From positions 8,540,720-8,583,194 of the forward strand of contig NC_057754.1 in assembly GCF_004010195.1 (NCBI RefSeq): DNA of 42,475 nucleotides, given 5' to 3'. The stretch is from Chiloscyllium plagiosum. Taxonomy: Eukaryota. The notes below the pieces were generated by a model. The model did not search any database and was not told where the DNA came from. It saw nothing but the letters and a program-made list of their open reading frames with translations. The translations under genes and the position numbers were made by a program. How positions within the stretch are numbered: the first letter of the stretch is position 1; the number at the start of each line of letters is the position of its first letter. This document shows positions 1 through 41,630 of this stretch, one piece after another.

Positions 1-3000
1 GCCATGCTAAATTGCCCCTAGTGTCCAGGGATGTGTAGGTTAGGGTGGATTGGCCGTACTAAATTGTCCCAGAATGTACAGCGATGTGCAAGTTAGGGTG
101 GATTGGCCATCCTAAATTGTCCCATACTGCCCAGGGAGGTACAGGTTAGTGTGGATTGGCTGTGCTAAATTGTCCCATATTACCCAGGGACATGCATGTG
201 AGGGTGGATTGGCTATGCTAAATTGTCCCATAGTGTCCAGGGATGTGCAGGTTAGGGTGGATTGGCCATGCTAAATTGCCCCTAGTGTCCAGGGATGTGC
301 AGGTTAGGGTGGATTGGCCGTGCTAAATTGCCCCATAGTGCCCAGGGATGTGCAGGTTAGGGTGGATTGGCTATGCTAAATTGCCCCATAGTGCCAAGGG
401 ATGTGCAGGTTAGGGTGGATTGGCCGTGCTAAATTGTCCCATAGTGTACAGACATGTGTAGGTGAGGGTGGATTGGCCATGCTAAATTGTCCCATACTGC
501 CCAGGGAGGTACAGGTTAGTGTGGATTGGCTGTGCTAAATTGTCCCATATTACCCAGGGACATGCAGGTGAGGGTGGATTGGCCATGCAAAATTGCCCGT
601 AGTGTCCAGGGATGTGCAGGTTTGGGGGGATTGGCCATGCAAAATTGCCCCATAGTGTTCCAGGGATGTGCAGGTGAATGTGGGTTGGCCGTGCTAAATT
701 GCCCCATAGTGTCCAGGGATATGCAGGTTTGGGGGGATTCGCCGTGCTAAATTGTCCCATAGTGTACAGGGATGTGCAAGTTAGGGTGGATTGGCCATGC
801 TAAATTGTCCCATACTGCCCAGGGAGGTACAGGTTAGTGTGGATTGGCTGTGCTAAATTGTCCCATATTACCCAGGGACATGCAGGTGAGGGTGGATTGG
901 CTATGCTAAATTGCCATGATAAATTTCCCCATAGTGTCCAGGGATGTGCAGGTTAGGATGGATTGGCTATGCTAAATTGCCCCATAGTGCCAAGGGCTGT
1001 GCAAGTGAGGGTGGATTGGCCATGCTAAATTGCCCCATAGTGTTCCAGGGATGTGCAGGTGAATGTGGGTTGGCCGAGCTAAATTGCCCCACAGTGTCCA
1101 GGGATGTGGAGGTTAGGGTGGATTGGCCATGCTAAATTGCCCCATAGTGCCCAGGGATGTGCAGGTTAGGGTGGATTGGCCGTGCTAAATTGCCCCATAG
1201 TGCCCAGGGATGTGCAGGTTAGGGTGGATTGGCCGTGCTAAATTGCTCCATAGTGTCCAGGGATGTGTAGGTTAGGGTGGATTGGCCATGCAAAATTGTC
1301 CCATAGTGTCCAGGGATGTGTAGGTTAGGGTGGATTGGCCGTGCTAAATTGTCCCATAGTGTACAGGGAAGTGCAAGTTAGGGTTGATTGGCCATGCTAA
1401 ATTGTCCATCGGGTCCAGGGATTTGCAGGTTAGGGTGGATTGGCCGTGCTAAATTGCCCCATAGTGCCCAGGGATGTGCAGGTGAATATGGGTTGGCCAT
1501 ACTAAATTGTCCCATAGTGCCCAGGGATGTGCAGGTTAGGGTAGATTGGCCGTGCTAAATTGTCCCATAGTGACCAGGGATGTACAGGTTAGGGTGGATT
1601 GGCTGTGCTAAACTGTCCCACAGTGCCCAGGGATGTGCAGGTTAGGTTGGATTGGCTATGTTAAATTGCCACATTGTGTCCAGGGATGTGCAGGTTAGGG
1701 TGAATTGGCCGTGCTAAATTGCCCGTGTGTCCAGGGATGTGTAGGTTTGGGGGGATTGGCCGTGCTAAATTGCCCCATAGTGCCCAGGGATGTGAAGGTG
1801 AATGTGGGTTCGCCATACTAAATTCTCCCACAGTGCCCAGGGATGTGCAGGTTAGGGTGGCTTGGCTGTGCTAAATTATCCCATAGTGTCCAGGGATGTG
1901 CAGGTTAGGGTGGGTTGGCCATGCTAAATTGTCCCATACTGCCCAGGGAGGTACAGGTTAGAGTGGATTGGCCATGCTAAATTGCCCCATCGTGTCCAGG
2001 GATGTGCAGGTGAATGTGGGTTGGCCGTGATAAATTGTCCCACAGTGCCCAGGATGTGCAGGCTAGGGTGGATTGGCTATGTTAAATTGTCCCATAGTGT
2101 CCAGGGATGTGCAGGTTAGGGTGGATTGGCCATGCTAAATTGCCCGTAGTGACCACGGATGTGCAGGTTTGGGGGGTTTGGCCGTGCTACATTGTCCCAC
2201 AGTGCCCAGGGATGTGCAGGTTAGGGTGGATTGGCCATGCTAAATTGCCCCATAGTGCCCAGGGATGTGTAGGTTAGGGTGGATTGGCCGTGCTAAATCG
2301 CCCATAGTGCCCAGGGAGGTGCAGGTTAGGGTGGATTGGACATGCTAAATTGCCCCATAGTGCACAGGGATGTGCAGGTGAATGTGGGTTGGCCGTGCTA
2401 AATTGACCCACAGTGCCCAGGGATATGCACATTAGGGTGGATTGGCCGTGCTAAATTGCCCCATAGTGTCCAGGGATGTGCAGGTTAGGGTGGATTGGCC
2501 TTGCTAAATTGTCCCATAGTATCCAGGGATATGCAGGTGAGGGTGGTTTGGCCGTGCTAAATTGCCCGTAGTGTCCAGGCATGTGTAGGTTAGGGTGGAT
2601 TGGTCATGCTAAATTGTTCCATAGTGCCCAGGGATGTGCAGATTAGGATGGATTGGCTATGCTAAGTTGCTGCATAGTGTCCAGAGATGTGCAGGTTAGG
2701 GTGGAATGGCCATGCTAAATTGCCCGTAGTGTCCAGGCATGTGTAGGTGAGGGTGGATTGGCCGTGCTACATTGTCCCACAGTGCCCAGGGATGTGCAGG
2801 TTAGGGTGGATTGGCCATGCTAAATTGTCCCAGAATGTCCAGGGACGTGCAGGTTAGGGTGGATTGGCCGTGCTATATTGCCCCATAGTGCACAGGGATG
2901 TGCGGGTGAATGTGGATTGGCCGTGCTAAATTGCCCCATAGTGCCCAGGGATGTGCAGGTTAGGGTGGATTGGCCATGCTATATTCACCCTCGTGTCCAA

Positions 3001-6000
3001 GGATATGCAGGTTAGGGTGGATTGGCCTTGCTAAATTGTCCCATAGTGCCAAGGGATGTGCAGGTTAGGATGGATTGGCCATGCTAAATTGCCAGTAGTG
3101 TCCAGGGATATGCAGGTGAATGTGGATTGGCCTTGCTAAATTGCCCCATAGTGCCCAGGGATGTGCAGGTTAGGGTGGATTGGCCATGCTAAATTGTCCC
3201 ATTATGCCCAGGGATGAGCAGGTTAGGGTGGATTGGCCATGCTAAATTTCCAGTAGTATCCAGGGATGTGCAGGTTATGTGTATTTGCCATGCTAAATTG
3301 CACGTAGTGTCCAGGCATGTGTAGGTTAGGGCGGATTGGTCATGCTAAATTGTTCCATAGTGCCCCGGGATGTGCAGGTTAGGATGGATTGGCTATGCTA
3401 AATTGTCCCATAGTGTCCAGAGATGTGCAGGTTAGGGTGGATTGGCCATGCTAAATTGCCCGTAGTGTCCAGGCATGTGTCGGTGAGGGTGGATTGGCCA
3501 CGCTAAATTGTCCCATAGTGGCCAGGGATGTGCAGGTTAGGATGGATTGGCCGTGCTAAATTGCCCCATAGTGTCCAGGGATGTGCAGGTTAGGGTGGAT
3601 TGGCCGTAATAAATTGTCCCATATTACCCAGGGACATGCAGGTGAGGGTGGATTGGCCATGCTAAATTGCCCCATAGTGCCCAGGGATGTGCAGGTTAGG
3701 GTGTATTGGCCGTGCTAGGTTGTCCGATAGTGTCCAGGGATGTGCAGGTTAGCGTGGATTGGCCATGCTACATTGTCCTATATTCCCCAGGGATGTGCAG
3801 GTTAGGGTGATTGGCCATGCTAAATTGCACCATATTACCCAGGGACATGCAGGTGAGGGTGGATTGGCCATGCTACATTGTCCCATAGTGTCCAGGGATG
3901 TGTAGGTTAGGGTGGATTAGCCGCGCTAAATCGCCCATAGTGCCCAGGGAGGTGCAGGTTAGGGTGGATTGGCCATGCTAAATTGCCCCATAGTGCCCAG
4001 GGATGTGCAGGTGAATGTGGATTGGCCTTGCTAAATTGCCCCATAGTGCCCAGGGATGTGCAGGTTAGGGTGGATTGGCCATGCTATATTGACCCTAGTG
4101 CCCAGGGATGTGCAGGTTAGGGTGGATTGGCCATGCTAAATTGTCCCATAGTGCCAAGGGATGTGCAGGTTAGGATGGATTGGCCATGCTGAATTGCCAG
4201 TCGTGGCCAGGGATGTGCAGGTTGAGGTGTATTGGCCGTGCTAAATTGTTCCATAGTATCCAGGGATGTGCAGGTTAGGGTGTATTTGCCATGCTAAATT
4301 GCACGTAGTGTCCAGGCATGTGTAGGTTAGGGTGGATTGGCCATGCTAAATTGTCCCGTAGTGCCCAGGGATGTGCAAGTTAGGATGGATTGGCCGTGCT
4401 AAATTGCCCCATAGTGTCCAAGGATGTGCAGGTTAGGGTGTATTGGCCATGCTAAATTGTCCCATAGTGTCCAAGGATGTGCAGGTTAGGGTGTATTGGC
4501 CATGCTAAATTGCCCTATAGTGCCCAGGGATGTGCAGTTTAGGGTGGATTGGCCGTAATAAATTGTCCCATATTACCCAGGGACATGCAGGTGAGGGTGG
4601 ATTGGCCATGCTAAATTGCCCCAAAGTGCCCAGCAGATGTGCAGGTTAGGGTGATTGGCCATGCTAAATTTCCCCATAGTGTCCATGGATGTGCAATTAG
4701 GGTGTATTGCCCGTGCTAAGTTGTCCCTTGGTGTCCAGGGATGTGCAGGTTAGGGTGGATTGGCCATGCTAAATTGTCCCATAGTGTTCAGGGATGTGCA
4801 GGTTAGGGTGGATTGGCCTTGCTACATTGTCCTATAATCCCCCGGGATGTGCAGGTTAGGGCGAATTGGACATGTTAAATTGCCCCATATTGCCCAGGGA
4901 TATACAGGTGCGGGTGAATTGGCCGTGCTAAATTGCCCCATAGTGTCCAGGGATGTACAGGTTAGGGTGGATTGGCCATGCTAAATTGCCCCATAGTGCC
5001 CAGGGATGTGCAGGTTAGGGTGGATTGGCCGTGCTAAATTATCCCATAGTGCCCAGGGATGTGCAGGTTAGGGTGGATTGGCCATCCTAAATTGCCCCAT
5101 AGTGCCCAGGGATGTGCATTTTTGGGTAAATTGGCCGTATTCAATTGCCCCATAGTGCCCAGCGGATGTGCAGGCTACGGTGGATTGGCCATGCTAAATT
5201 GTTCCATCGTGCCCAGGGATGTGCAGGTTAGGATGGAATAGCTATGCTAAGTTGTCCCATAGTGGCCAGGGATGTGCAGGTGAGGTTGGATTGTCCGTGC
5301 TAAATTGCCCCATAGTGTCCAGGGATATGCAGGTTAGGGTGGACCGGCCATTATAAATTGCCCCATATTGTCTAGGGATATGCAGGTGAGGGTGGTTTGG
5401 CCGTGCAAATTGCCCGTAGTATCCATCGATGTGTAGGTTAGGGTAGATTGGCCATGCTAAATTGCCCCATACTGCCCAGGGATGTGCAGGTTAGGGTGTA
5501 TTGGCCGTGCTAAGTTGTCCCATAGTGTCCAGGGATGTGCAGGTTAGGGTGGATTGGCCAAGCTACATTGTCCTATATTCCCCAGGGATGTGCAGGTTAG
5601 GGTGAATTGGCCATGCTAATTTGCCCCATATTACCCAGGGACATGCAGGTGAATGTGAATTGGCCGTGCTAAATTGCCCCATAGTGTCCAGGGATGTGCA
5701 GGTTAGGGTGTATTGGCCGTGCTAAATTGCCCCATTGTGCCCAGGGATGTGCAGGTTAGGGTGTAATGGCCGTGCTAAATTGTTCCATAGTGCCCAGGGA
5801 TGTGCAGGTTAGGGTGGATTGGCCATGCTAAGTTGTCCCATAGTGTCCAGGGATGTGTAGGTTAGGGTGGATTGGCCATGCTAAATTGCCCCATAGTGCC
5901 CAGGGACATGCAGGTGAGGGTGGATTGGCCATGCTACATTGTCCCATAGTGTCAAGGAAAGTGCAGGTTAGTGTAGATTGGCCGTGTTAAGTTGTCCCAT

Positions 6001-9000
6001 AATGCCCAGGGATGTACAGGTTATGGTGGATTGGCCGTGCTAAATTGCACCATAGTGCCCAGGGATGTGCAGGTTAGGGTGGATTGGCCGTGCTAAATTG
6101 CCCCACAGTGCCCAGCGATGTGCAGGTTAGGGTGGATTGGCCATGCTATATTGACCCTAGTGCCCAGGGATGTGCAGGTTAGGGTGGATTGGCCGTGCTA
6201 AATTGTCCCATAGTGCCATTGGATGTGCAGTTTAGGATGGATTGGCCATGCTAAATTGCCAGTAGTGTCCAGGGATGTGCAGGTTAGGGTGGATTGGCTA
6301 TGCTAAATTGTCCCATAGTGCCCAGGGATGAGCAGGTTAGGGTGGATTGGCTATGCTAAATTTCCAGTAGTGTCCAGGGATGTGCAGGTTAGGGTGGATT
6401 GGCTATGCTAAATTGTCCCATAGTGCCCAGGGATGTGCAGGTTAGGATGGATTGGCTATGGTAAGTTGCCGCATAGTGTCCAGAGATGTGCAGGTTAGGG
6501 TGGATTGGCCATGCTAAATTGCCCCATACTGCCCAGGGACATGCAGGTGAGGGTGGATTGGCCATGCTAAATTGCCCCATAGTGTCCAGGGATGTGCAGG
6601 TTAGGGTGTATTGGCCATGCTAAGTTGTCCCATAGTGTCCAGGGATGTGTAGGTTAGGGTGGATTGGCCATGCTAAATTGCCCCATTGTGCCCAGGGATG
6701 TGCAGGTTAGGGTGTAATGGCCGTGCTAAATTGCCCCATAGTGTCCAGGGATGTGTAGGTTAGGGTGGATTGGCCATGCTAAATTGCCCCATACTGCCCA
6801 GGGACATGCAGGTGAGGGTGGATTGGCCATGCTAAATTGCCCCATACTGCCCAGGGACATGCAGGTGAGGGTGGATTGGCCATGCTAAATTGCCCCATAG
6901 TGTCCAGGGATGTGCAGGTTAGGGTGGATTGGCCATGCTAAATTGCCCCTAGTGTCCAGGGATGTGTAGGTTAGGGTGGATTGGCCGTACTAAATTGTCC
7001 CAGAATGTACAGCGATGTGCAAGTTAGGGTGGATTGGCCATCCTAAATTGTCCCATACTGCCCAGGGAGGTACAGGTTAGTGTGGATTGGCTGTGCTAAA
7101 TTGTCCCATATTACCCAGGGACATGCAGGTGAGGGTGGATTGGCTATGCTAAATTGTCCCCTAGTGTCCAGGGATGTGTAGGTTAGGATGGATTGGCCAT
7201 GCTAATTTGCCCCTAGTGTCCAGGGATGTGTAGGTTAGGGTGGATTGGCCGTACTAAATTGTCCCAGAATGTACAGGGATGTGCAAGTTAGGGTGGATTA
7301 GCCATGCTAAATTGTCCCATACTGCCCAGGGAGGTACAGGTTAGTGTGGATTGGCCGTGCTAAATTGTCCCATATTACCCAGGGACATGCAGGTGAGGGT
7401 GGATTGGCTATGCTAACTTGTCCCATAGTGTCCAGGGATGTGCAGGTTAGGGTGGATTGGCCGTGCTAAATTGCTCCATAGTGCCCAGGGATGTGCAGGT
7501 TAGGGTGGATTGGCTATGCTAAATTGCCCCATAGAGCCAAGGGATGTGCAGGTTAGGGTGGATTGGCCGTGCTAAATTGTCCCATAGTGTACAGGGATGT
7601 GCAAGTTAGGGTGGATTGGCCATGCTAAATTGTCCCATACTGCCCAGGGAGGTACAGGTTATTGTGGATTGGCTGTGCTAAATTGTCCCATATTACCCAG
7701 GGACATGCAGGTGAGGGTGGATTGGCTATGCTAAATTGTCCCATAGTGTCCAGGGATGTGCAGGTGAATGTGGATTGACCATGATAAATTGTCCCACAGT
7801 GCCCAGGGATGTGCAGGTTAGGGTGGATTGGCTATGCTAAATTGCCCGTGTGTCCAGGGATGTGTAGGTTTGGGGGGATTGGCCGTGCTAAATTGCCCCA
7901 TAGTGCCCAGGGATGTGCATGTTCGGGTGGATTGACCATTTTAAATTGCCCCATAATGCCCAACGGATGTGCAGGTTAGGGTGGATTGGCCATGCTAAAT
8001 TCTTCCATAGTGCCCAGGGATGTGCAGGTTAGGATGGATTAGCTATGCTAAGTTGTCCCATAGTGCCCAGGGATGTGCAGGTTAGGTTGGATTGTCCGTG
8101 CTAAATTGCCCCATAGTGTCCAGGGATGTGCAGGTTAAGGTGGACCGGCCATGATAAATTGCCCCATATTGCCTAGGGATATGCAGGTGAGGGTGGTTTG
8201 GCCGTGCAAATTGCCCGTAGTGTCCATGGATGTGCAGGTTAGGGTGGATTGGCCATGCTAAATTGCCCCATACTGCCCAGGGATGTGCAAGTTAGGGTGG
8301 ATTGGCCGTGCTACATTGTCCCATAGTGTCCAGGGTTGTGTAGGTTAGGGTGGATTGGCCATGCTAAGTTGTCCCATAGTGTCCAGGGATGTGCAGGTTA
8401 GGGTGGATTGGCCATGCTATATTGTCCTCTATTCCCCAGGGATGTGCAGGTTAGGGTGAATTGGCCATGATAAATTGCCCCATATTGCCTAGGGATATGC
8501 AGGTGAGGGTGGATTGGCCGTGCTAAATCGCCCATAGTGCCCAGGGTGTGCAGGTTAGTGTTGATTGGCCATGCTAAATTGTCCCATAGTGCCAAGGGAT
8601 GTGCAGGTTAGGATGGATTGGCCATGCTAAATTGCCAGTAGTGTCCAGGGATGTGCAGGTTAAGGGGTATTGGCCGTGCTAAATTGTCCCATAGTGTCCA
8701 GGCATGTGTAGGTTAGGATGGATTGGTCATGCTAAATTGTCCCATAGTGCCCAGGGATGTGCAGGTTTGGATGGATTGGCTATGCTAAGTTGTCGCATAG
8801 TGTCCAGACATGTGTAGGTGAGGGTGGATTGGCCACGCTAAATTGTCCCATAGTGCCCAGGGATGTGCAGGTTAGGATGGATTGGCCATTCTAAATTGCC
8901 CCATAGTGCCCAGGGATGTGCAGGTTAGGGTGTATTGGCCGTGCTAAATTGTCCCATAGTGCCCAGGGATGTGCAGGTTAGGGTGTATTTGCGGTGCTAA

Positions 9001-9096
9001 ATTGCACGTAGTGTCCAGGCATGTGTAGGTTAGGATGGATTGGTCATGCTAAATTGTCCCATAGTGCCCAGGGATGTGCAGGTTTGGATGGATTGG

Positions 9097-9864
9097 NNNN
9101 NNNNNNNNNNNNNNNNNNNNNNNNNNNNNNNNNNNNNNNNNNNNNNNNNNNNNNNNNNNNNNNNNNNNNNNNNNNNNNNNNNNNNNNNNNNNNNNNNNNN
9201 NNNNNNNNNNNNNNNNNNNNNNNNNNNNNNNNNNNNNNNNNNNNNNNNNNNNNNNNNNNNNNNNNNNNNNNNNNNNNNNNNNNNNNNNNNNNNNNNNNNN
9301 NNNNNNNNNNNNNNNNNNNNNNNNNNNNNNNNNNNNNNNNNNNNNNNNNNNNNNNNNNNNNNNNNNNNNNNNNNNNNNNNNNNNNNNNNNNNNNNNNNNN
9401 NNNNNNNNNNNNNNNNNNNNNNNNNNNNNNNNNNNNNNNNNNNNNNNNNNNNNNNNNNNNNNNNNNNNNNNNNNNNNNNNNNNNNNNNNNNNNNNNNNNN
9501 NNNNNNNNNNNNNNNNNNNNNNNNNNNNNNNNNNNNNNNNNNNNNNNNNNNNNNNNNNNNNNNNNNNNNNNNNNNNNNNNNNNNNNNNNNNNNNNNNNNN
9601 NNNNNNNNNNNNNNNNNNNNNNNNNNNNNNNNNNNNNNNNNNNNNNNNNNNNNNNNNNNNNNNNNNNNNNNNNNNNNNNNNNNNNNNNNNNNNNNNNNNN
9701 NNNNNNNNNNNNNNNNNNNNNNNNNNNNNNNNNNNNNNNNNNNNNNNNNNNNNNNNNNNNNNNNNNNNNNNNNNNNNNNNNNNNNNNNNNNNNNNNNNNN
9801 NNNNNNNNNNNNNNNNNNNNNNNNNNNNNNNNNNNNNNNNNNNNNNNNNNNNNNNNNNNNNNNN
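9097..9864. other. Assembly gap (768 N) inside the satellite
   Basis: Run of n. Confidence 1.
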
Positions 9865-11429
9865 GATTGGCCATGCTAAATTGCCCCATATTGCCCAGGG
9901 ATATACAGGTGCGGGTGAATTGGCCGTGCTAAATTGCCCCATAGTGTCCAGGGATGTGCAGGTTAGGGTGGATTGGCCGTGCTAAATTGCCCCACAGTGC
10001 CCAGCGATGTGCAGGTTAGGGTGGATTGGCCATGCTATATTGACCCTAGTGCCCAGGGATGTGCAGGTTAGGGTGTATTGGCCGTGCTAGGTTGTCCCAT
10101 AGTGCCCAGGGATGTGCAGGTTAGGATGGATTGGCCATGCTAAATTGCCATTAGTGTCCAGGGATGTGCAGGTTAAGGTGTATTTGCCGTGCTAAATTGT
10201 CCCATAGTATCCAGGGATGTGCAGGTTAGGGTGGATTGGCCGTGCTAAATTGCCCCATAGTGTTCAGGGATGTGCAGGTTAGGGTGGATTGGCCATGCTA
10301 AATTCTTCCATAGTGCCCAGGGATGTGCAGGTTAGGTTGGATTGTCCGTGCTAAATTGCCCCATCGTGCCCAGGGATGTGCAGGTTAGGGTGATTGGCCA
10401 TGCTAAATTGCCCCATAGTGCCCAGGGATGTGCAGTTAGGGTGTATTGGCCGTGCTAAGTTGTCCCTTGGTGTCCAGGGATGTGCAGGTTAGGGTGGATT
10501 GGCCATGTTACATTGTCCTATATTCCCCAGGGACATGCAGGTGAGGGTGGATTGGCCATGCTACATTGTCCCATAGTGTCCAGGGAAGTGCAGGTTAGGG
10601 TGGATTGGTCGTGCTAAGTTGTCCCATAATGCCCAGGGATGTACAGGTTATGGTGGATTGGCCGTGCTACATTGCCCCATAGTGTCCAGGGATGTGCAGG
10701 TTAGGGCGAATTAGCCATGCTAAATTGCCCCATATTGCCCAGGGATATACAGGTGCGGGTGAATTGGCCGTGCTAAATTGCCCCATAGTGCCCAGGGATG
10801 TGCAGGTTAGGGTGGATTGGCTATGCTAAATTGCACCATAGTGCCCAGGGATGTTCAGGTTAGGGTGGATTGGCCATGCTAAATTGCCCCATAGTGCCCA
10901 GGGATGGGCATTTTCGGGTGGATTGGCCATTTTAAATTGCCCCATAGTGCCCAGCAGATGTGCCGGTTCGGGTGGATTGGCCATGCTAAATTCTTCCATA
11001 GTGCCCAGGGATGTGCAGGTTAGGTTGGATTGTCCGTGCTAAATTGCCCCATAGTGCCCAGCAGATGTGCAGGTTAGGGTGGATTGGCCGTGCTAAATTG
11101 TCCCTTAGTGCCCAGGGATGTGCAGGTTAGGGTGGATTGGCCGTGCTAAATTGTCCCATAGTGCCCAGGGATGTGCAGGTTAGGGTGAATTGGCCGTGCT
11201 AAATTGCCCCATAGTGCCCAGCAGATGTGCAGGTTAGGGTGGATTGGCCGTGCTAAGTTATCCCTTGGTGTCCAGGGATGTGCAGGTTAGTGTGGATTGG
11301 CCATGCTAAATTGTCCTATAATCCCCCGGGATGTGCAGGTTAGGGCGAATTGGCCATGCTAAATTGCCCCATTTTGCCCAGGGATATACAGGTGCGGGTG
11401 AATTGGCCGTGCTAAATTGCCCCATAGTG

Positions 11430-11611
11430 NNNNNNNNNNNNNNNNNNNNNNNNNNNNNNNNNNNNNNNNNNNNNNNNNNNNNNNNNNNNNNNNNNNNNNN
11501 NNNNNNNNNNNNNNNNNNNNNNNNNNNNNNNNNNNNNNNNNNNNNNNNNNNNNNNNNNNNNNNNNNNNNNNNNNNNNNNNNNNNNNNNNNNNNNNNNNNN
11601 NNNNNNNNNNN
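11430..11611. other. Assembly gap (182 N)
   Basis: Run of n. Confidence 1.
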
Positions 11612-11657
11612 GGATGCTGCCTGACCTGCTGCGCTTTTCCAGCAACACATTTTCAGC
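11612..11657. mobile_element. Arm of a family-A Penelope-end fold-back element inserted in the satellite (rest hidden in the gap)
   Basis: ggatgctgcctgacctgctgcgcttttccagcaacacatttttcagc matches the arm ending at 32926 and at about 18980-19025; satellite resumes immediately after. Confidence 0.85.
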
Positions 11658-12055
11658 GTTTTCAATTGCCCCATAGTGCCCAGCGGATGTGCAGGTTAGG
11701 GTGGATTGGCCATGCTAAATTGTTCCATAGTGCCCAGGGATGTGCAGGTTAGGATGGATTAGCTATGCTAAGTTGTCCCATATTTCCCAGGGATATGCAG
11801 GTGAGGGTGGTTTGGCCGTGCTAAATTGCCCCATAGTGTCCAGGGATGTGCAGGTTAGGGTGGACCGGCCATGATAAATTGCCCCATATTTCCCAGGGAT
11901 ATGCAGGTGAGGGTGGTTTGGCCGTGCTAAATTGCCCGTAGTGTCCATGGATGTGCAGGTTAGGGTGGATTGGCCATGCTAAATTGCCCCATACTGCCCA
12001 GGGATGTGCAAGTTAGGGTGGATTGGCCGCACTACATTGTCCCATAGTGTCCAGG

Positions 12056-12197
12056 GATGTGTAGGTCAGATGCATTTGTTAGGGTTGATTGAAGAGTAAT
12101 AGGGTAAAGGAATGGAACTCGGTGGGTTACTCTTCAGAGGCTCAGTGTGGACCTGTTGGGCCAAAGCGCTTGTTTCCACACTGTAGAGATTCTATGA
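12056..12197 (+). mobile_element. 3' tail of an HE1 SINE terminating the satellite
   Basis: ...ggtgggttactcttcagaggctcagtgtggacctgttgggccaaagcgcttgtttccacactgtagagattctatga matches the 3' end of the HE1 copy at 37005-37340. Confidence 0.9.
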
Positions 12198-12279
12198 TCA
12201 GAGATGACCATTAAACCTTCTTTCTCTACCTGAACATACTTGCATTGGGCTCCAGCTTGAGTCTAGGGCATCACTGATG

Positions 12280-12378
12280 ACAATAGACAATAGACAATAG
12301 GTGCAGGTGTAGGCCATTCTGCCCTTCGAGCCTGCAACACCATTCAATATGATCATGGCTGATCATCCTTAATCAGTA
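12280..12378 (-). mobile_element. CR1-type LINE 3' end fragment
   Basis: (caataga)n terminal microsatellite followed by ggccattctgcccttcgagcc, typical of the reverse complement of a CR1 tail. Confidence 0.7.
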
Positions 12379-13118
12379 AGCCAACACTGCCCTGATACCA
12401 CCAGGGAGAGACATTGCACGTCAGCACCACCTCTCGCTTCAGATCATAGTGGGCCATTGGACCATCTTGTGTGCGTGGCAATGGCTCCTTCAGTCACCAG
12501 GAGGGGCTGAAAGGAGTCACTTCAGGAAGGGAGCCAGGCAATTGACACACAAGCCGGAGTTGGGGCTGCCCGTGTCTCTGAGGAAAGGGGCGAGAGTTGT
12601 GGCAAATGCGCAGTTGCCAGCAGCGCCATCGGAATCTTTAGAAAACGGCTAAAGTTCGGCTGCAAAATGAGCCGCTTGGGTCAGAAGCAGAGATAAAGGA
12701 AATGCAGAGAATAACCCTGGCAGAATGAAAAGAAAGAGAAAATGAAACGAAACAGTTTGAAGTAGGATTAAATGCAGAGGATAAAGAAAAGGAGACGAAG
12801 CAGAAGAAAGGGAGAAAGAGCAGAAAGGGAGAGTTTGAACTTTAGAGGCTGGAACTGAAAGTCAACTTAGAATGGTGGCAGTAGTAGTGAAACGTGGGAG
12901 TACTGATGAGGACAGAGAGAGACAGGAATCTCATCGTAGCCAGGTGCCTAGTGGAGGATTTATTGAAGTACGTCCAAGCGTCATCTTAGTTAGGTGCGAA
13001 GTTTTGCGAAATCCTTTTCATTTCAGTTAAGGAAGTCGTTGAACAAATGAAATGGCTGGTGACCACGTGGGTATTGTTGATCCAAACAAAGTTGGACAGC
13101 AGAGCTCGTGAGGTATTT

Positions 13119-13284
13119 GTGTTGCTGGAAAAGCACAGCAGGTCGGGCAGCATCAGAGGAGCAGGAGAATCGACGTTACGGGCAAAAGCCCTTCATCAGG
13201 GATTTCCTGCTGCCTGACTGCCTGTACTTTTCCAGCACCACGCTCTCGACTCTGATCTCCAGCATCTGCAGTCCTCACTTTTGC
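13119..13284. mobile_element. Family-A Penelope-end fold-back element with degenerate hammerhead core
   Basis: Inverted arms. Minus strand reads ctgatga-a-gggc-tttt-gccc-gtaa-cgtc. 15-bp TSD ctc(g/a)tgaggtatttg at 13105-13119 and 13285-13299. Confidence 0.85.
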
Positions 13285-13360
13285 CTCATGAGGTATTTGC
13301 ATCACTATCAGAGGAGGTATCTGGGGAGTATAATGAGTTGAAGAAATCCATTTTAATCTC

Positions 13361-13503
13361 AAAGTTAAAAATCACACAACACCAGGTTATAGTCCAACAG
13401 GTTAAATTGGAAGCACACTAGCTTTCGGAGCGTCGCTCCTTCATCAGGTGATAGTGGAGGGCTCAATTGTCAGGCACAGAATTTATAGCAAGAATTTACA
13501 GTG
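13361..13503 (-). mobile_element. Family-B Penelope-end element carrying an intact minimal hammerhead core
   Basis: aaagttaaaaatcacacaacaccaggttatagtccaacagg terminus shared with copies at 25111-25616 and 41137-41285; interrupts the Gypsy gag frame. Confidence 0.8.
13416..13450 (-). ncRNA. Minimal type I hammerhead ribozyme motif (family B)
   Basis: Minus strand: CAC-CUGAUGA-A-GGAGC(GAC)GCUCC-GAAAGCUA-GUG. Stem I CAC/GUG, perfect 5-bp stem II, palindromic AGCU loopless stem III, CUA cleavage triplet. Confidence 0.8.
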
Positions 13504-13567
13504 CATAATGAGTTAGGACCAGAAGCCTATGGAGAACTTTTCAGGAATCTAAGGAGGGATCCTGATC

Positions 13568-13838
13568 ATAGAACATAGAACATAGAAAAATACAACGCAG
13601 TACAGGCCCTTTGGCCCTCGATGTTGCGCCGTTCCAAGCCCACCTAACCTACACTAGCCCACTATCCTCAATATGCCAATCCAATGCCCGTTTAAATGCC
13701 CAGAAAGAGGGAGAGTCCACCACTGCTACTGGCAGGGCATTCCATGAACTCACGACTCGCTGAGTAAAGAATCTACCCCTAACATCTGTCCTATACCTAC
13801 CACCCCTTAATTTAAAGCTATGCCCCCTCGTAATAGCA
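13568..13838 (-). mobile_element. CR1/HER1 LINE 3' end
   Basis: (catagaa)n tail and reverse complement of RT C-terminal region (FFTQRVVSSWNALP). Confidence 0.88.
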
Positions 13839-14304: not shown

Positions 14305-14900
14305 TTTAGATTGATTCACTCATGGAACATGGGTGTTGCTGGCTAGCTGGCATTTATTGCCTGTCCATTGTTGCCCTGTGAGAAGGTGGGAGTCAGCTGC
14401 CTTTCTGAGCCATTGCAGCCCATGGACAGTAAGGAGACCCACAATGCTATTAGGGAGGGAATTCCAGGATTTTGACCCAGTGACAGTAAAGAAGAATGAC
14501 ACATTTCTAAATCAGGATGGTGACTGGCTTGGAGACACTTGCAGGTGGTGGTGTTCTGATGTATCTGCTGTCCTGGTCCTTCTAGATGGAAGTGGCTCTG
14601 GATTTGGAAGGGGCTAAGGATCTTTCATGAATTTCTGCAGTGTATTTTGTAGATATACACACTATCACTACTAAATGTCGATGGTGAACAAAGTGGGTGC
14701 AGTGCCAATCAAGTGTGCTGCTTTGTCCTGGATGATGTGAAGCTTTTTGAGTGCTACTGGAGCTGTACTTTTACAGTAAAGTGGGGAGTACTCCATCACA
14801 CCTGTGCCATGTAGATCATGGACAGGGTTTAGGGAGTCAAGAGTTGATTTATTCAATGCAGTATTCCGAGCCTCTGAGCTACTCGTGCAGTCACTGTGTT
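14305..14900 (-). mobile_element. Non-LTR (CR1/L2-group) LINE 3' fragment
   Basis: Minus strand MEYSPL...LKKLHIIQDKAAHLIG and FTVTGSKSWNSLPNSIVG; same family as 37575-37885 and 39165-39460. Confidence 0.75.
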
Positions 14901-14904
14901 TATA

Positions 14905-15212
14905 TAGAATCCCTACTATTTGGAAAGAGGCCCTTTAGCCCAACATGTCCAACACCATCCCCCGAAGAGCATCCCACCAAAAAACATCTCCCTACCTTGT
15001 CCCTGCAACCCCCACGGCTAATCGCCAAACCTACACATCCCCAGACAATGGACAATTTAGCATGGCTAATGGCTAATCCATCTAACCTGCACATCTTTGG
15101 ACAGAGAAAGGAAACCACAGCACCTGGAGGAAACCCTTGCAGACATGGGAGAATGTACAAACTCCACATAGACATTTGCCCAAAGCTGGAAATGAACCCA
15201 AGCCCCCTGTGC
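14905..15212 (-). mobile_element. HE1 SINE, 5' degraded
   Basis: Reverse complement of V-domain and tail (ggacaatttagcatggctaat...acctgcacatctttgga...aaactccaca). Confidence 0.85.
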
Positions 15213-15361
15213 CTATAGTTACTAGGGTTATCCCTACTCCCCTTCTTGAACAAGGGTACCACATTTGCTATCCTCCAGTGTACTGGCACTATTCCTGTAG
15301 ACAACGAGGACATAAAAACCAAGGCCAATGGCTCTGCAATCTCCTCCCTTGTATTGAGAGA
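15213..15361 (-). mobile_element. CR1 ORF2 fragment
   Basis: EEIAEPLALVFMSSLSTGIVPVHWRIANVVPLFKKGSRDNPSNYR. Confidence 0.9.
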
Positions 15362-15369
15362 GATCATAG

Positions 15370-15780
15370 CAAATGTACTTTGAAAGGATCAAATAAAGTA
15401 ATTTTGATAAGTGGATAAGGGCAATGAAAATGGAACAAATATATAACGCTCGTAGAGAGATGATTATTTTGAAGGAGTTCAAAAGTCCATTTCTTGAAGT
15501 AGTGCAAACTCGTGTGAAAGTGCAGAGAGTTAAAACGGCAAGATCAGCATCAGAAATGGCGAACGATTATGCGTTGGTTCGTAAATCAGAGTTTGGTTTC
15601 TGGCATCAATTTCAGTTGGTGAGGGATAGGAACTGGGGAGAAGAGAAATCCTCAGGTGCTGAGGGAAAAGGAGATCTCCTTGGAAATGGCCGAGATAGCT
15701 TCCCACAGGGAAAACAGGAAACCCGTGAGAGGAGAAAAGGAGGGAGTAGGCCACATGAAGTCGTAGTGTTGGTGGTTTAG
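15370..15780 (+). pseudogene. Gypsy gag capsid C-terminal / SCAN-like domain remnant
   Basis: NFDKWIRAMKMEQIYNARREMIILKEFKSPFLEVVQTRVKVQRVKTARSASEMANDY resembles the SCAN pattern (L.ELIILEEF...V.T...AAE.ADDY). Confidence 0.7.
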
Positions 15781-15887: not shown

Positions 15888-16180
15888 AGATTAGATTCCC
15901 TACACCATGGAAACAGGCCCTTTGGCCCAACAAGTCCACATCGACCCTCCGAAGGACAACACACCCAGACCCATCCCCCTAACTAATGCACCTAACACTA
16001 CGGGCAATTTAGCATGGCTAATTCACCCTAACCTGCACATCTTTGGACTGTGGGAGGAAACCCACGCAGACATAGGGAGAATGTGCAAACTCCACACAGA
16101 CAGTTGCCTGAGATTGGAATTGAATCTGGTCCCAGGCTCTGAGAGGCAGCAGGGCTAACCACTGAGCCACTGTGCCGTCC
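15888..16180 (-). mobile_element. HE1 SINE
   Basis: tRNA-derived head (reverse complement of ggcacagtggctcagtggttagc), V-domain, (gatta)n tail. Confidence 0.92.
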
Positions 16181-16386
16181 CAACCACTGTGAAGTGCTTG
16201 AGAAGGTGCCAGATCTTTTACTTGTAAGGGTAAGGTTTACTCATGTTTGCTAGGCAGGAGCGGGTAAAGAAACTAAAATAGGGGAGCATGTCAATCTTCA
16301 ATGGTGAGCAATTCAGAAGGAGCATTCCCAGAAAAGCTGGTAATATGGGCAATTCATGATGAGAAGAGCAGGGTTCCATTATATAA

Positions 16387-18593: not shown

Positions 18594-18865
18594 TCTCCCT
18601 GGAACAGAATGGTAGTGAAGGTGGATCTGAGTGTACTAGGATGATTCTGAGTGAGAGACTGACTGCACCTGAACCATCCTGTGTGTGAATCTGACTGCAT
18701 CAGAATCACTTGGATGTGAATCGGACATGTCTGTAATTATTTTGAGTTTGCATCCTGACTGGATTGAACGCTTTATGAGTGTGACTCAACCAGAATCATT
18801 TGAAGTGTGAATCTGACCAGTTTCGAATGATTCTGAGGATGAATCAGGCTAGAACCATATTTTAG

Positions 18866-19068
18866 CTGAAAATGTGTTGCTGGAAAAGCGCAGCAGGTCA
18901 GGCAGCATCCAGGGAACAGGAGAATCGACGTTTCGGGCATAAGCCCTTCTTCAGGGCTTATGCCTGTTCCCTGTTCCCTGGATGCTGCCTGACCTGCTGC
19001 GCTTTTCCAGCAACACATTTTCAGCTCTGATCTCCAGCATCTGCAGACCTCACTTTCTCCTCAAAGAT
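18866..19068. mobile_element. Family-A Penelope-end fold-back element
   Basis: Near-perfect inverted arms plus tail ctctgatctccagcatctgcagacctcactttctcc; perfect 16-bp TSD tagaaccatattttag at 18850-18865 and 19069-19084. Confidence 0.9.
18927..18954 (-). ncRNA. Minimal hammerhead ribozyme core (family A)
   Basis: Minus strand: CUGAAGA-A-GGGC(UUAU)GCCC-GAAACGUC; palindromic ACGU stem III, GUC triplet; stem I weak in this copy. Confidence 0.7.
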
Positions 19069-19335
19069 TAGAACCATATTTTAGTAAGTGTGCATTTGAC
19101 AGGACCACAATCATTAAGAACGGCAGTCTGATGACACAGGAGTCATTTGGAGTGTGAATCTGACCAGACCAGAATTATTCTGAATATAAATATGACTAAA
19201 CCTGAATATTTATGAGTGTGAGACTTACTGTACCAGAATCATTCTGCCTGTGAATCTTATTGGACCAGAAACATTTTGAGTGTGAGTTGACCATTGTAGA
19301 ATGATTTCGAGTGTGAATCTGACTGAACCAGAATC

Positions 19336-20090
19336 TGAGTCGAGAGTGTGTTGCTGGAAAAGCACAGTCGGTCAGGCAGCATCCAAGGAACAGGAAAATT
19401 GACGTTTTGGGCATAAGCCCTTCCTCGTTTTCCAGCACTACACTTGACTCTGGTGGAGCTGATAGGTGGGAAAGGTGATGGACAGGTCAGGAGGGTGGTG
19501 CCGAGTTCTTCAAGATCACAATGTCCCCTCCCACATGGTTGATGATGGCCTCCATAGCATCTCCTCCACTTCCTGTACCACCGCCCTTGAACCCCACCCC
19601 TCCCAACGCAACAAGGACAGAATCCCCCAGTCCTCACCTTCCACCCATCTCCACAAATATAACATCATCCTCCACCACTTCAGATATACCTATCAGCATT
19701 CTGGAGAGATCATTCGCTCCGCGACTCCCTCATCAGGTCCAAGACCACCCACCAGGCTAACCCCACACCCAGCACCTTCCCTTGCCACTGCAGGAAGTGC
19801 AAAACCTGTGCCCACACCTCCTGGCCCATAAGCCTCATTCCGATGAAGGGCCTATGCCTGAAACGTCGATTCTCCTGCTCCTGGGATGCTGCCTGACCTG
19901 CACCACACTCTCGACTCTGATCTCCAACATCTCCAGCCCTCACTTTCTCCTGGTGGATTTTAACCCCACGGTGAAACCTCTTCCAAGGATGCCTACCTTG
20001 AAGAAGCTCTCCTCCTCACTCCACAAAGATCTGAGTGAGTCGCCCCCAGGTCATCTCCTCTGCCCTGAAGCTCTTCAGCCACAGCCACTA
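19336..20090 (+). mobile_element. Rearranged Penelope-like element (Neptune-type) fragment: inverted end, ORF remnant, pseudo-LTR
   Basis: PSHMVDDGLHSISSTS...RNKDR and the Cys-rich linker TFPCHCRKCKTCAHTS (about 19770-19820), then the family-A terminal sequence (19838-19951) running into a putative ORF start MPTLKKLSSSLHKDLSES. Confidence 0.8.
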
Positions 20091-20245
20091 TCACTCTGTT
20101 TGTTAATCTGACTAAACCATTCTCATTGCTCATGTGAATCCCCCTGGAACAGAGTGTTGATGATTGTGATTCAAATAATTCTGAGTGTCAATCTGAATCA
20201 ACTGGAATCCTTCTGGATGAGAGTCTGACTGAACCCGGATCATGT

Positions 20246-20580
20246 GGGGTGGCACGGTGGCTCAGTGGTTAGCACTGCTGCCTCACAGTGCCCGGGACCC
20301 CAGGTTCGATCTCGGGTGACTGTCTGTGTGGAGTTTGCACATTCTCCCCGTGTCTGCATGGGTTTCCTCGGGGTGCTCTGATTTCCTCTCACAGTCACAA
20401 AGATGTGCAGGTTGGGTGGATTGGCCGTTCTAAATTGCCCCATAGTGTCCAGGGATGTGCAAGTTAGGTGTGTTGGCCAAATATAGGGTAGGGGGCTGGG
20501 TCTGTGTATGATGGTCCTTCGGAGGGTGGGTATGGACTTGATGGTCCAAATGACCTGTTTCCACACCGTTGGGATTCTAG
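20246..20580 (+). mobile_element. HE1 SINE, near full length
   Basis: A box tggctcagtgg, B box ggttcgatc, V-domain, internal direct repeat gatgtgca(g/a)gtt, CR1-derived tail. Confidence 0.93.
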
Positions 20581-20968
20581 GGACTCTGAACATGAATCCA
20601 ACTAGACTGGAATCACGAGTGTGAACCTGATTGGGCTGGAACTGAATCGTTCTGAGGATGAGTCTTCCTGGACCAGAATCATTGGGATCATTAATCTGAC
20701 GAGGCTTGAATCAGTTTGCGTGTGAATCTGACTGGAGTGGATGCTGTGTGAAATGTGGATCTGCCTCAGAAGCTGAATATTATGATGTTCACAGAGTGTG
20801 AATAAGACTGGACAGAAATCACTGGGTGTGTGAGTTGGCCCACTTCAGAACCATTTGAGAGTGAATTGGACACATCTGTAGCCATTCTGAGTTTGAATCT
20901 GACTGGACTGGATGCTTTATGAGCAACTGGAATCATTCTGTGTGCAAAGCTGACCAGTCTTCAATTAT

Positions 20969-20997
20969 TGTGTGTGTGTGTGTGTTTGTGTGTGTGT
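20969..20997. repeat. (TG)n microsatellite
   Basis: tgtgtgtgtgtgtgtgtttgtgtgtgtg. Confidence 0.9.
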
Positions 20998-21469
20998 ATC
21001 TGACTAGAATGAATCATACTCAGTGCAAGTTTAACAGGATGACAATATTCAAGAAATGTGTATCTGACTCACCCAGAGTCACCCTGAGTGCGAATCTGAC
21101 CAGACCAGAATTATTACGAGTGTGAGACTTACTGGAGTGAATTATTCTGCCAGCAACTCTGACTAGGCCAGGAGCTTTCTCTGTGTTCATCTGATTAGAC
21201 CCGAATAATTCTGACTGCGAATCCGACTCAACCAGCCTCATTCTCTGTATGAAATTGACCTGATTGGAATCACCCAAAGTGTCAATCTGGGAGGACCTGA
21301 ATCATTTTGAGGATGAGTCTTACTGGACCGGGACCATTCCGAGTTTGATCTGACTGGACTGGATGTTTTATGAGTATGAATCCGACTCAACCACAATTAT
21401 TCCATGTGAGAATCTGACTCAATCAGAATTATTCTGAGTATGAATCTGATTGGTTTAAAGACGGTTTCA

Positions 21470-22075
21470 TTCACAGTCTTTATATTCCTCGCCTGATTAT
21501 CCTTAGAGTTTAGATTTATATCTTTGCTATCATTTTTGGGTCCTACTTTGCTGGATATTCAATTTATCCCAATTTTTGCTCAACATCACTGACTCTGGCC
21601 TCCTTATGTGCTTTTTCTTTCAATGTAATGCTCTCTGTTATTTCCTTGGTTGGACTTTGTTGGTTTAACCCTTTCTTAGAATCTTTTCGCTTTACTGAGA
21701 TTTTTGTTTTGCTGAGAGTCATGATTTACCTCATTAAATGCCTGACATTGCTTTTTCTTAACCTGTCAGTCCGACGAACCTAAAAACCCAGTTCACTTTA
21801 GCTAACCGTACCTTCATTTCATTGTAATTCCCGTACTGAAGTTAAGCATTGTTATTTCTGAACCAACTAATTCTCGAACTGCACAGTAAGTTCTATCATG
21901 TTAGAACTACTCTTTGGGAATGTAGCCAATCAAGTGGTGAAAGTTTCAGAGGGTGAGCATTTTAGGGATAGTGACGATAACTCTGCAGTTTCAGAGCCAC
22001 TGTGGGAAGGGACAAGGATAGTGCAGCAGCTAAGTGTCTGAACGCTGATTGCAAAGCCATGAGATGGGATCTGGC
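21470..22075. mobile_element. Old CR1 ORF2 fragments (minus strand to about 21925, plus strand after)
   Basis: gagcattttagggatagtgacgataactct and gatctggcaaacatagactggga resemble the CR1 post-endonuclease region (EHFGDSDHNS; DLA..DW). Confidence 0.55.
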
Positions 22076-22826: not shown

Positions 22827-23142
22827 TAGATTAGATTAGATTACTTACAGTGTGGAAACAGGCCCTTCGGCCCAACAAGTCCACACTGACCCGCCGAAGC
22901 GCAACCCACCCATACCCCTACATTTACCCCTTACCTAACACTACAGGCAATTTAGCACGGCCAATTCACCTAACCTGCACATCTTTAGACTGTGGGAGGA
23001 AACCGGAGCACCCGGAGGAAACCCACGCAGACACAGGGAGAACGTGCAAACGCCACACAGTCAGTCGCCTGAGGCGGGAATTGAACCCGGTACTCTGGCG
23101 CTGTGAGGCAGTAGTGCTAACCACTGTGCCACCGTACCGCCC
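22827..23142 (-). mobile_element. HE1 SINE, full length and apparently young
   Basis: Intact A/B boxes (reverse complement of tggcacagtgg and ggttcaattcc), V-domain, (tagat)n tail. Confidence 0.95.
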
Positions 23143-23149
23143 ACCATGC

Positions 23150-23693
23150 CGTGTCCTCTCAGTCCTTTGCAGACTCGACTGGCACTTCAAATGTGCCTGA
23201 CTGTCAGAGCGTTGCAACAGGTTTACCGTCAGTGGGAGCAATGGAGTTAAAACCATGTCAAACCATCAAACCTCAGGCTGATTGAGATCACATCGTATTG
23301 TCAATGATCTCTCCAGGTTCATATGTAAAAGGAAAGGGGACATTAGTTAAACAGAGTACACTGCAGGTTGTTGCGAGCACCACAGCTGCAGTTTTCTCTG
23401 TGCGATATGTTGTTTTTAGCTTCTGGCAAAAAAAAACACACCAATTGAAGGCGAAAGAGATGGCGAACCAGACAGACCTGTCAGCGGCTGCACAAATCAT
23501 GGCATAAATAGTATTACAGATAGGGATAATGTCCAGGAAGGATCCAAGCAAATAATAATGATGAATCCACCCCAGTACCACCTCAACAACAAAACCAGTA
23601 GATCCACTGTTGCCGTGGCCACCAGATAGTGAGTGATGCGAGCTGAGAGTCAGCAATTCGCCTGAGACAGGATCCCAATAGTCGCTTAATTCG
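23150..23693 (-). pseudogene. GPR139/GPR142-like GPCR pseudogene (exon 2, TM1 to ICL3), paralog of the gene at 35037-40131
   Basis: Acceptor ttctgtttcttgcAG (23694-23695), then N*ATIGILSQANC*LSARITHYLVATATVDLL...SVWFAISFAFN...CQKLKTTYRTEKTAAVVLATTCSVLCLTNVPF...MVLTPLLP...SRVCKGLRGH. Stops and frameshifts; DRF motif lost; TM6-7 absent. Confidence 0.9.
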
Positions 23694-36591: not shown

Positions 36592-37004
36592 CCATATTAA
36601 AAGTATGGTAGGGTCAGAATAATGTTGGGCGTAGGGAGGGAGGGGCATAGACGAATGTCTATGGATGGAATAATTCAATTTTAAAAGGAATAATGTTTGA
36701 AGACAATTGGGACGATTAAAAATTGAATGATAGGTACAGGACAGGTAATAATTTGTGGCAGCAGAATAACAAAGCAACAGAAAAGTTTGTAAATTCTAGA
36801 AAAGACGTGGAAGCACCACAGGCTTAGAAAGGTGATGTGTAGACACAAGAGTTTGAACCAGCCAGCGAGCTGTGTATCAATAAGGGGGAAGAGAACTATA
36901 TGATCAATCAGAAATTGGGAAGAAGAAGCTGAATGCCAAAATCTAAAGACAAATCTAAATTGAAAATGCAGCTGAAGGTGATGAAGACAGGTGTAATGCA
37001 GCTT

Positions 37005-37341
37005 GGGGTGGCACAATGGCTCAGTGGTTAGCACTGCTGCCTCACAGCACCAGGGACCCAGGTTCGATTCCAGCCTCAGGCGCCGGTCTGTGTGGAGTTT
37101 GCACAATCTCTTGTTTGGGTAAGTTTCCTCCAGGTACTCTGTTTCCTCCCACAATCCAAAGATGTGCAGGTTAAGTGCTAAAATTGCCCATTGTTCTCAG
37201 GGATGTATAGGTTAGGTGCATTAGTCAGGGGAAAATATAGGATAATAGAGTAGGGGAATGGGTTGAGTGGGTTACTCTTCGGAGGGTCGGTGTGGACTTG
37301 TTGTCTGAAGAGCCTGTTTCCACACTGTAGCAATTCTATGA
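37005..37341 (+). mobile_element. HE1 SINE (intronic)
   Basis: A box tggctcagtgg, B box ggttcgattcc, V-domain, tail gtttccacactgtagcaattctatga. Confidence 0.93.
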
Positions 37342-41285: not shown

Positions 41286-41630
41286 TAGAATCATAGAATC
41301 CCTACAGTGTGGAAACAGGCCCTTCAGCCCAACAAGTCCACACTCCGAAGAGTAACTCACCCAGTCCCATTGCCTTACCCTATTACTCTACTTTCAGCCC
41401 TGACTAATGCACCTAACCTACACATCCCTGAACACCATGGGCAATTTACCACAGCCAATTTACCTAACCTGCACATCTTTGGATTGTGGGAGGAAACCGG
41501 AGCACCCGGAGGAAACCCACGCAGACACAGGGAGAATGTGCAAACTCCACACAGACTGTCGCCCGAAGCTGGAATGGAACCCAGGTCCCTGGCGCTGTGA
41601 GGCAGCAGTGCTAGCCACTAAGCCACTGAG
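41285..41630 (-). mobile_element. HE1 SINE
   Basis: (catagaat)n tail, V-domain, tRNA-like head. Confidence 0.93.

What the first reader, a model, noticed from the sequence alone, without database searches (positions are those of the whole stretch)
1..12197. 12-kb satellite amplified from inside a single HE1 SINE
Seen: dispersed HE1 copies here contain one monomer bounded by a short direct repeat (gatgtgcaggtt...gatgtgcaagtt at 20402-20465). The array is that interval repeated about 200 times. At 12056-12197 the last monomer continues without a junction into a normal HE1 3' tail. Inference: slippage or unequal exchange between the internal direct repeats expanded one SINE into a satellite in place. 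The tRNA-derived head with its Pol III A/B boxes should then lie at the far left end, outside the window, and could in principle drive transcription into the array.
Basis: partly seen in the sequence, partly recalled or inferred. Interest (0 to 1): 0.72.

Follow-up and report, generated by a model that had tools for sequence, protein, structure and literature searches.

The report
Shark SINE-derived 53-base satellite array
About 200 head-to-tail copies of a 53-base piece from the middle of a common short jumping element run straight into that element's tail, and the block likely grew by repeated uneven DNA exchange, a way of making repeat DNA already reported in frogs, snakes and lizards.

Summary
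The array is real: 206 full 53-bp monomers, 84.8% mean pairwise identity. It is not continuous: two N gaps (950 bp) and a 46-bp arm of another repeat interrupt it. The monomer matches the interval between two internal direct repeats of a dispersed tRNA-type SINE, and the last monomer passes in register into that SINE's tail (112/137 identical to the best copy). Only 4 of 6 dispersed copies carry the second repeat. Block duplications and shared variants point to growth by repeated unequal exchange. The monomer is closest to one SINE copy and the tail to others (weak support), so the unit may have moved between loci rather than arisen once here. The head at the left end and transcription remain untested: no genome is held, and no listed contig bridged the junction. 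Precedents: squamate SINE-derived satellites (PMC10702118) and the 52-bp V-SINE minisatellite of frogs (PMC10794172). The HE1 name was not tested against a reference. The scan noted the same thing on three other pieces of this genome (unchecked notes). New member of a known kind.

The parts
1..9096 (+). Array segment A, 171 full 53-bp monomers; open at the window's left edge
   Evidence: TRF 172.0 copies; monomer table
9097..9864 (.). Assembly gap, 768 N
9865..11429 (+). Array segment B, 28 full monomers; shares a 128-bp exact match with segment A (6059 and 9948)
11430..11611 (.). Assembly gap, 182 N; may hold the rest of the palindromic insertion (inferred)
11612..11657 (.). 46-bp arm of an unrelated palindromic dispersed repeat inside the array (Penelope-like by recall, not tested)
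   Evidence: 100% identical to 18865-18910 and 18980-19025, 17 other hits in the window; full palindromes printed
11658..12054 (+). Array segment C, 7 full monomers plus a partial one; 11664-12066 is 95.8% identical over 403 bp to 7944-8345
12055..12080 (+). Second direct repeat of the SINE: the in-register passage from monomer to tail
   Evidence: column-by-column comparison; laid-contig depth falls from about 3-5e5 at 12056-12066 to 4-11 at 12078-12088
12081..12197 (+). SINE 3' tail, ending in the same short terminal motif as the dispersed copies
   Evidence: 112/137 to the copy at 41626-41294; alignments
20245..20580 (+). Dispersed full SINE copy with direct repeats at 20402 and 20454; its unit is the closest to the array consensus
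   Evidence: 72/81; 0.90; positions
41294..41626 (-). Dispersed full SINE copy with both repeats (51 bp apart); its tail is the closest to the array's tail
37004..37338 (+). Dispersed full SINE copy, unit shortened to 41 bp; same tail type as the array
14905..15174 (-). Dispersed SINE copy without a head, both repeats (56 bp apart)
15892..16182 (-). Dispersed SINE copy lacking the second direct repeat
22847..23148 (-). Dispersed SINE copy lacking the second direct repeat

Best explanation
This is a tandem array of a 53-bp unit that matches the stretch between two internal direct repeats of a tRNA-type SINE and runs in register into that SINE's tail; it likely grew at this locus by repeated unequal exchange or slippage, probably with exchange of units between different SINE loci. 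Steps: (1) shown: one form of the SINE carries about 1.5 units, a roughly 25-bp repeat recurring 51-56 bp downstream; (2) inferred: misalignment of the two repeats gave two units; (3) shown as pattern, inferred as process: blocks of several monomers were copied to near and far places in the array and variants were reshuffled; (4) inferred, weak: the successful monomer type was not necessarily invented here but is shared with SINE copies of another tail type; (5) shown: a palindromic element later landed near the right end. A head at the unseen left end is about an even bet. No function is needed; the array is most likely neutral repeat DNA.
For: Unit equals the repeat-to-repeat interval: 72/81 to the copy at 20241, 62/75 to the copy at 41626. 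Tail real and in register. The terminal segment belongs to the same array despite the gaps: 95.8% over 403 bp to 7944-8345, 93.1% to 5143-5544, and a 101-bp exact match. Block copying: 35 of 201 six-monomer windows have a partner at 93% or better; mean best partner 0.912 against 0.894 (maximum 0.897) in 20 order shuffles; 12 of 625 neighbour-variant tests pass Bonferroni; exact matches of 196, 128 and 119 bp at lags of 131, 73 and 6 units. Reshuffling: 123 of 295 pairs of common variants show all four combinations; only 30 of 1006 non-consensus cells are singletons. A signature of the second repeat lies inside the array: T at column 8, the state at the terminal junction and in 3 of the 4 dispersed second repeats, follows T at column 49 in 24 of 25 cases (22 of 23 among full monomers, p 9e-9). 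Precedent: squamate arrays with one extended SINE end, up to hundreds of units (PMC10702118); 52-bp piece of a V-SINE expanded in frog subtelomeres (PMC10794172); short flanking repeats as seeds (PMC6947457).
Against: The left end is outside the window and no head or body sequence lies in 1-12200. The unit-versus-tail discordance rests on 6 copies with bootstrap 51 (unit) and 83 or 33 (tail, 125 or 72 nt); concerted change of the monomer could give the same picture. The column 49/8 linkage could also come from one mutation inside the array. Four-combination pairs can come from recurrent mutation. There is no gradient of divergence along the array (Spearman -0.06, p 0.35), so nothing shows directional growth from the tail.
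Confidence: 0.65

Rival explanations
1. An array born at another locus was joined to this SINE's tail by one crossover inside the shared direct repeat; there is no head at the left end.
For: A crossover in the repeat gives the same seamless junction. Monomer and tail have different nearest relatives. One-sided arrays are the common form in squamates. Monomer-like sequence is very abundant in 3 of 3 contig sets laid (depth up to about 2e6 against 7-120 on the flank; not a copy number).
Against: The terminal block has a 95.8% internal copy that also shares the column-8 T of the junction, which fits exchange between the array and its own end (chance about 12%, as 24 of 206 monomers carry it). Unchecked scan notes report other loci in this genome with both ends.
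Confidence: 0.16
2. One reading: one plain 1.5-unit SINE expanded once, in place, with no input from other loci, and its head sits at the far left.
For: In-register tail and unit identity; tail divergence from the local majority (64 of 72) is of the same order as monomer divergence from the array consensus (9.2%).
Against: The array unit shares a G at column 20, four pyrimidines at columns 39-42 and C at column 50 with the copy at 20241, whose tail is of another type, and not with the copies at 41626 and 37004 that share its tail (read by eye from the alignments). Scan notes (unchecked) report the same 52-53-bp unit in arrays on three other pieces.
Confidence: 0.11
3. Assembly artefact: monomers from several arrays were stitched together, or a satellite was mis-joined to a dispersed SINE through the shared repeat.
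For: Two N gaps. The first 196 bases of the window are identical to 6932-7127, which can be a recent duplication or a mis-join.
Against: 185 of 206 monomers are distinct. Private variants of the last monomer (about 12029-12035) and of the tail (from 12066) lie within about 40 bases of unbroken sequence. The flank at 12351-13095 is single-copy and present in other individuals and a second organism. One contig of the second organism runs from tail into flank (12171-12225, 3 other letters in 55; short of the tool's 31-letter rule).
Confidence: 0.05
4. Reverse direction: the satellite came first and the SINE picked up its unit.
For: The copy at 20241 looks array-like in its unit and second repeat, so single copies may have been overwritten by array sequence.
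Against: All 6 dispersed copies, including the 2 without a second repeat, carry most of the unit as an integral part between body and tail.
Confidence: 0.03

Closest known systems
SINE-derived satellites sSat1-3 of squamate reptiles (Vassetzky, Kosushkin, Ryskov 2023, PMC10702118; parts 1-4 of 5 of the text read)
   Same: Tandem unit shorter than the SINE and taken from inside it; a longer terminal unit that continues to the SINE's end; up to hundreds of units (320, about 950, over 1200); locus-specific subvariants.
   Different: Unit 53 bp against about 70-290; other SINE family and taxon; identity here (84.8% pairwise) is lower than the 91-94% given for long cobra loci; a pre-existing internal direct repeat is visible here as the seed; chromosome position unknown here.
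52-bp minisatellite from SINE/tRNA-V in Xenopus tropicalis and other frogs (Bredeson et al. 2024, PMC10794172; passages only; 5 supplementary files gave no hit, file 5 not searched)
   Same: About the same unit length, from the 3' part of a V-SINE (HE1 is listed as a V-SINE in PMC3747384 and PMC4824008); expansion ascribed to unequal crossing over.
   Different: Frog arrays are shown to be subtelomeric; the position here is unknown. Whether the two units are homologous could not be tested.
Minisatellites seeded by short direct repeats in Alu and B1 SINEs (Haber and Louis model, as reviewed in PMC6947457; passages only)
   Same: First duplication between short repeats that flank the future unit, then expansion by slippage, conversion or unequal crossing over.
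   Different: The flanking repeat here is about 25 bp rather than 5-10 bp, and the array exceeds 11 kb.
HE1 SINE of sharks and rays, partner LINE HER1 (table row in PMC3747384; passage in PMC4824008; original papers not held)
   Same: tRNA-type head with A-box-like and B-box-like motifs, about 330 bp long, conserved 3' tail.
   Different: Identity with HE1 not tested against a reference; internal arrays are not mentioned in the passages seen.

Membership tests
SINE-derived satellite (sSat type) | Tandem unit similar to part of a dispersed SINE and shorter than it | tested here: met
   72/81 and 62/75 to dispersed copies of about 330 bp
SINE-derived satellite (sSat type) | At least four middle monomers, head to tail | tested here: met
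   206 full monomers
SINE-derived satellite (sSat type) | A terminal unit that extends to one SINE terminus | tested here: met
   12056-12192 aligns to the 3' end at 112/137
SINE-derived satellite (sSat type) | Many loci of the same unit in the genome | tested here: inconclusive
   No genome held; very high summed contig depth on monomers is not a copy number; other loci known only from unchecked notes
SINE-derived satellite (sSat type) | Subtelomeric enrichment | not testable with these tools
   Chromosome position of the window unknown
Array inside one SINE with both ends kept | Head and body in register at the 5' end | not testable with these tools
   Window begins inside the array; no head or body hit in 1-12200
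Array inside one SINE with both ends kept | Target-site duplication around the whole | not testable with these tools
   Left flank missing; in 4 dispersed copies properly tested the longest shared flank word was 4-6 nt, so the test would be weak
tRNA-derived SINE (dispersed copies) | Pol III A and B boxes in the head | tested here: met
   A-box-like motif in 5 of 6, B-box-like in 4 of 6 copies with recalled patterns; ARAGORN finds no tRNA and Rfam no tRNA hit at E 0.1, as is usual for SINE heads
HE1 / V-SINE | Similarity to the HE1 consensus and the 80-bp V-domain | not testable with these tools
   Original paper not held; no sequence in the supplement searched
HE1 / V-SINE | 3' tail shared with the HER1 LINE | not tested
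   A CR1-like reverse-transcriptase fragment lies at 28915-29409 (named by recall) but its 3' end was not compared
Satellite with a regular higher-order repeat | A fixed multi-monomer period | tested here: not met
   Mean identity at lags 1-30 is flat, 0.843-0.854

The most novel reading that the evidence does not exclude
The same short stretch behind the V-domain of V-SINEs is a reusable satellite seed in both sharks and frogs, and in this shark one monomer type spreads sideways between SINE subfamilies by ectopic conversion; where the head is kept, Pol III could read more than 5 kb of terminator-free array (no T4 on the + strand before 5119), giving long satellite RNAs from a SINE promoter.
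Probability: 0.12. Interest if true: 0.6.

Novelty: new member of a known kind. Interest (0 to 1): 0.3.

Why it matters
The squamate study left open whether SINE-derived satellites occur outside scaled reptiles, and the frog study gives one V-SINE case. A likely shark case widens the range, and here the seed (a 1.5-unit SINE form), seedless forms and a long array lie in one window, so the first step of satellite birth can be studied directly. My searches found no shark report: shark + satellite DNA + SINE + elasmobranch gave 0 papers; shark + minisatellite + SINE + subtelomere gave 1 unrelated paper; a monomer motif gave 0; one shark genome paper's Y-satellite table has no match to two monomer motifs. 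The library lacks most subscription journals. The process itself is known and nothing here shows a function.

Tried and rejected
Whole genome: none held, so no left end and no census. Metagenome scans for a two-unit pattern and a one-unit pattern: 0 matches each. Sequencing runs for 11612-13600: 24 listed, no RNA holder listed; 5 of the 24 were laid. Junction check with contigs of 4 runs on 11990-12290: no listed piece had 31 letters on both sides of the monomer-to-tail join; pieces were 39-95 letters, 32 of 7205 shown. Three of those runs had no depth at 12210-12290; the tool's filter makes a hole no evidence. RNA: one single-cell poly(A) run, about 2 in 100 of it read, put 2730 reads on 11612-13600; monomer bins had 0.4-19 reads a strand on both strands, and 97% of laid reads ran on unlike the stretch, so they are mostly from other copies; no verdict on transcription. 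A 15-bp target-site duplication around the palindromic insertion was considered and set aside: the monomer left of the gap and the one right of the arm are of different variant types. Regular higher-order repeat: none. Gradient of divergence or of likeness to the SINE unit along the array: none. Coding capacity: longest stop-free stretch in segment A 105 codons. Rfam on 11600-42475: 6 sub-threshold hairpin hits, none on the SINE. The flank test for the copy at 41626 picked a wrong end and was dropped; the copy at 15174 has no head. Look-ups of earlier notes by sequence and by relatives found nothing. The frog monomer could not be seen (one supplementary file unread), and supplements I could not see may bear on homology.
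Full report
Observation. Tandem Repeats Finder reports period-53 arrays at 1-9096, 9865-11429 and 11664-12066, 209 copies in all. Cutting them into units gives 212, of which 206 are full (171, 28 and 7). Mean pairwise identity is 84.8%, mean divergence from the consensus 9.2%, and 185 of 206 monomers are distinct. The array is not continuous: N gaps lie at 9097-9864 and 11430-11611, and 11612-11657 is a 46-bp arm of a palindromic dispersed repeat, identical to 18865-18910 and 18980-19025. Sequenced array comes to 11,070 bases. The window starts inside the array, so its true length is unknown.

The SINE. A BLAST search with the copy at 20241-20590 finds five more long copies (14905-15174, 15892-16182, 22847-23148, 37004-37338, 41294-41626) and one weak 38-bp hit that I left out. 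Five of six have an A-box-like and four of six a B-box-like motif (recalled patterns). All six carry most of the monomer between body and tail, but only four have the second direct repeat, 52, 51, 56 and 41 bp after the first. Where present the repeat extends over about 25 bp, so that form of the SINE already holds about 1.5 units. That the organism is a shark rests on that label and on earlier notes.

The junction. The last full monomer ends at 12054; the next begins as the SINE's second repeat and continues as the tail to about 12197. The stretch 12056-12192 matches the copy at 41626 at 112 of 137 columns, and the part beyond the repeat scores 130 against at most 29 in 300 shuffles. The terminal segment is tied to the main array by sequence, not only by scaffolding: 11664-12066 is 95.8% identical to 7944-8345 and 93.1% to 5143-5544. 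Independent confirmation of the join failed for lack of long contigs. The flank beyond is single-copy and present in two runs of organism A and, at about 95% identity, one of organism B; a second run of organism B has a 55-letter contig from tail into flank, a weak hint that the SINE tail is at the same site there.

How it grew. There is no fixed higher-order period and no gradient along the array. There are multi-monomer blocks copied over short and long distances: 35 of 201 six-monomer windows have a partner at 93% or better, the mean best partner exceeds all 20 order shuffles, and exact matches of 196, 128 and 119 bp occur at lags of 131, 73 and 6 units. Variants are shared and reshuffled: 830 of 1006 non-consensus cells belong to variants seen five times or more, and 123 of 295 variant pairs show all four combinations. 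This is the pattern expected from repeated unequal exchange and conversion; the process is inferred. One detail links the array to the SINE's second repeat: T at column 8, found at the terminal junction and in three of four dispersed second repeats, follows T at column 49 in 24 of 25 cases inside the array. A single mutation inside the array could also give this.

One event in one SINE? The array consensus is closest to the unit of the copy at 20241 (0.90; others 0.69-0.84), but the array's tail is closest to the copies at 41626 and 37004 (0.84, 0.76; the copy at 20241 0.65). Tree support is weak (51 for the unit; 83 for 125 nt of tail, 33 for the last 72 nt).

Head and transcription. No head or body sequence lies in 1-12200, and no genome is held. 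In squamates most such arrays have one extended end and two ends are uncommon (PMC10702118); unchecked notes claim loci with both ends in this genome. I put the head at about even odds. The + strand has no run of four T before 5119, then T5 at 5119 and T4 at seven later places; by established knowledge of Pol III termination a read-through transcript would likely stop there. The one RNA run laid gave no verdict.

Comparison. It works like, and meets the tested defining features of, the SINE-derived satellites of squamates (PMC10702118, parts 1-4 of 5 read). The nearest case by family and unit length is the 52-bp minisatellite from SINE/tRNA-V in frog subtelomeres (PMC10794172, passages); homology of the units is untested. 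Seeding by short internal direct repeats is the standard model for Alu minisatellites (PMC6947457, passages; PMC3389668 seen only in a search listing). I found no shark report in the library (PMC10468316 and PMC11406177 passages).

Verdict. A real SINE-derived satellite, a new member of a known kind, already noted by this scan on three other pieces of the same genome. Interest 0.3.

Noticed in passing
window 11612-11657; also 18865-19025, 29712-29897, 36429-36578, 42030-42165: An abundant palindromic repeat (two inverted arms, about 135-190 bp) occurs many times in the window; one truncated arm sits inside the array beside the 182-N gap, which could hold the rest of it. Penelope-like by recall only.
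   Followed up: partly
window 1-12066: The monomer contains the telomere hexamer TTAGGG (114 occurrences, all on the + strand; 15 and 9 on the two strands in the rest of the window) and six GG tracts; most dispersed SINE copies have one G fewer at that spot.
   Followed up: no
window 1-196 and 6932-7127: 196-bp exact match, the longest in the array: a very recent block duplication or an assembly join.
   Followed up: no
window 35037-36074 (-): 345-codon open frame that looks like a seven-transmembrane receptor; a shorter related frame at 23288-23719 (-).
   Followed up: no
window 28915-29409 (+), 30320-30727 (+), 14900-15388 (-): Fragments that look like CR1-type LINE reverse transcriptase (by recall); the headless SINE copy at 15174 directly abuts one of them.
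   Followed up: no
window 39461-39826: Hexamer microsatellite, 61.5 copies of GGGATA.
   Followed up: no
window 19200-21500: AT-rich degenerate 32-bp-period repeats around the SINE copy at 20241, which make its flanks unsuitable for a target-site test.
   Followed up: no
window 12610: Contigs of one run of organism A and one of organism B carry 9 more bases here than the window, while another run of organism A matches the window: a small indel polymorphism in the single-copy flank.
   Followed up: no
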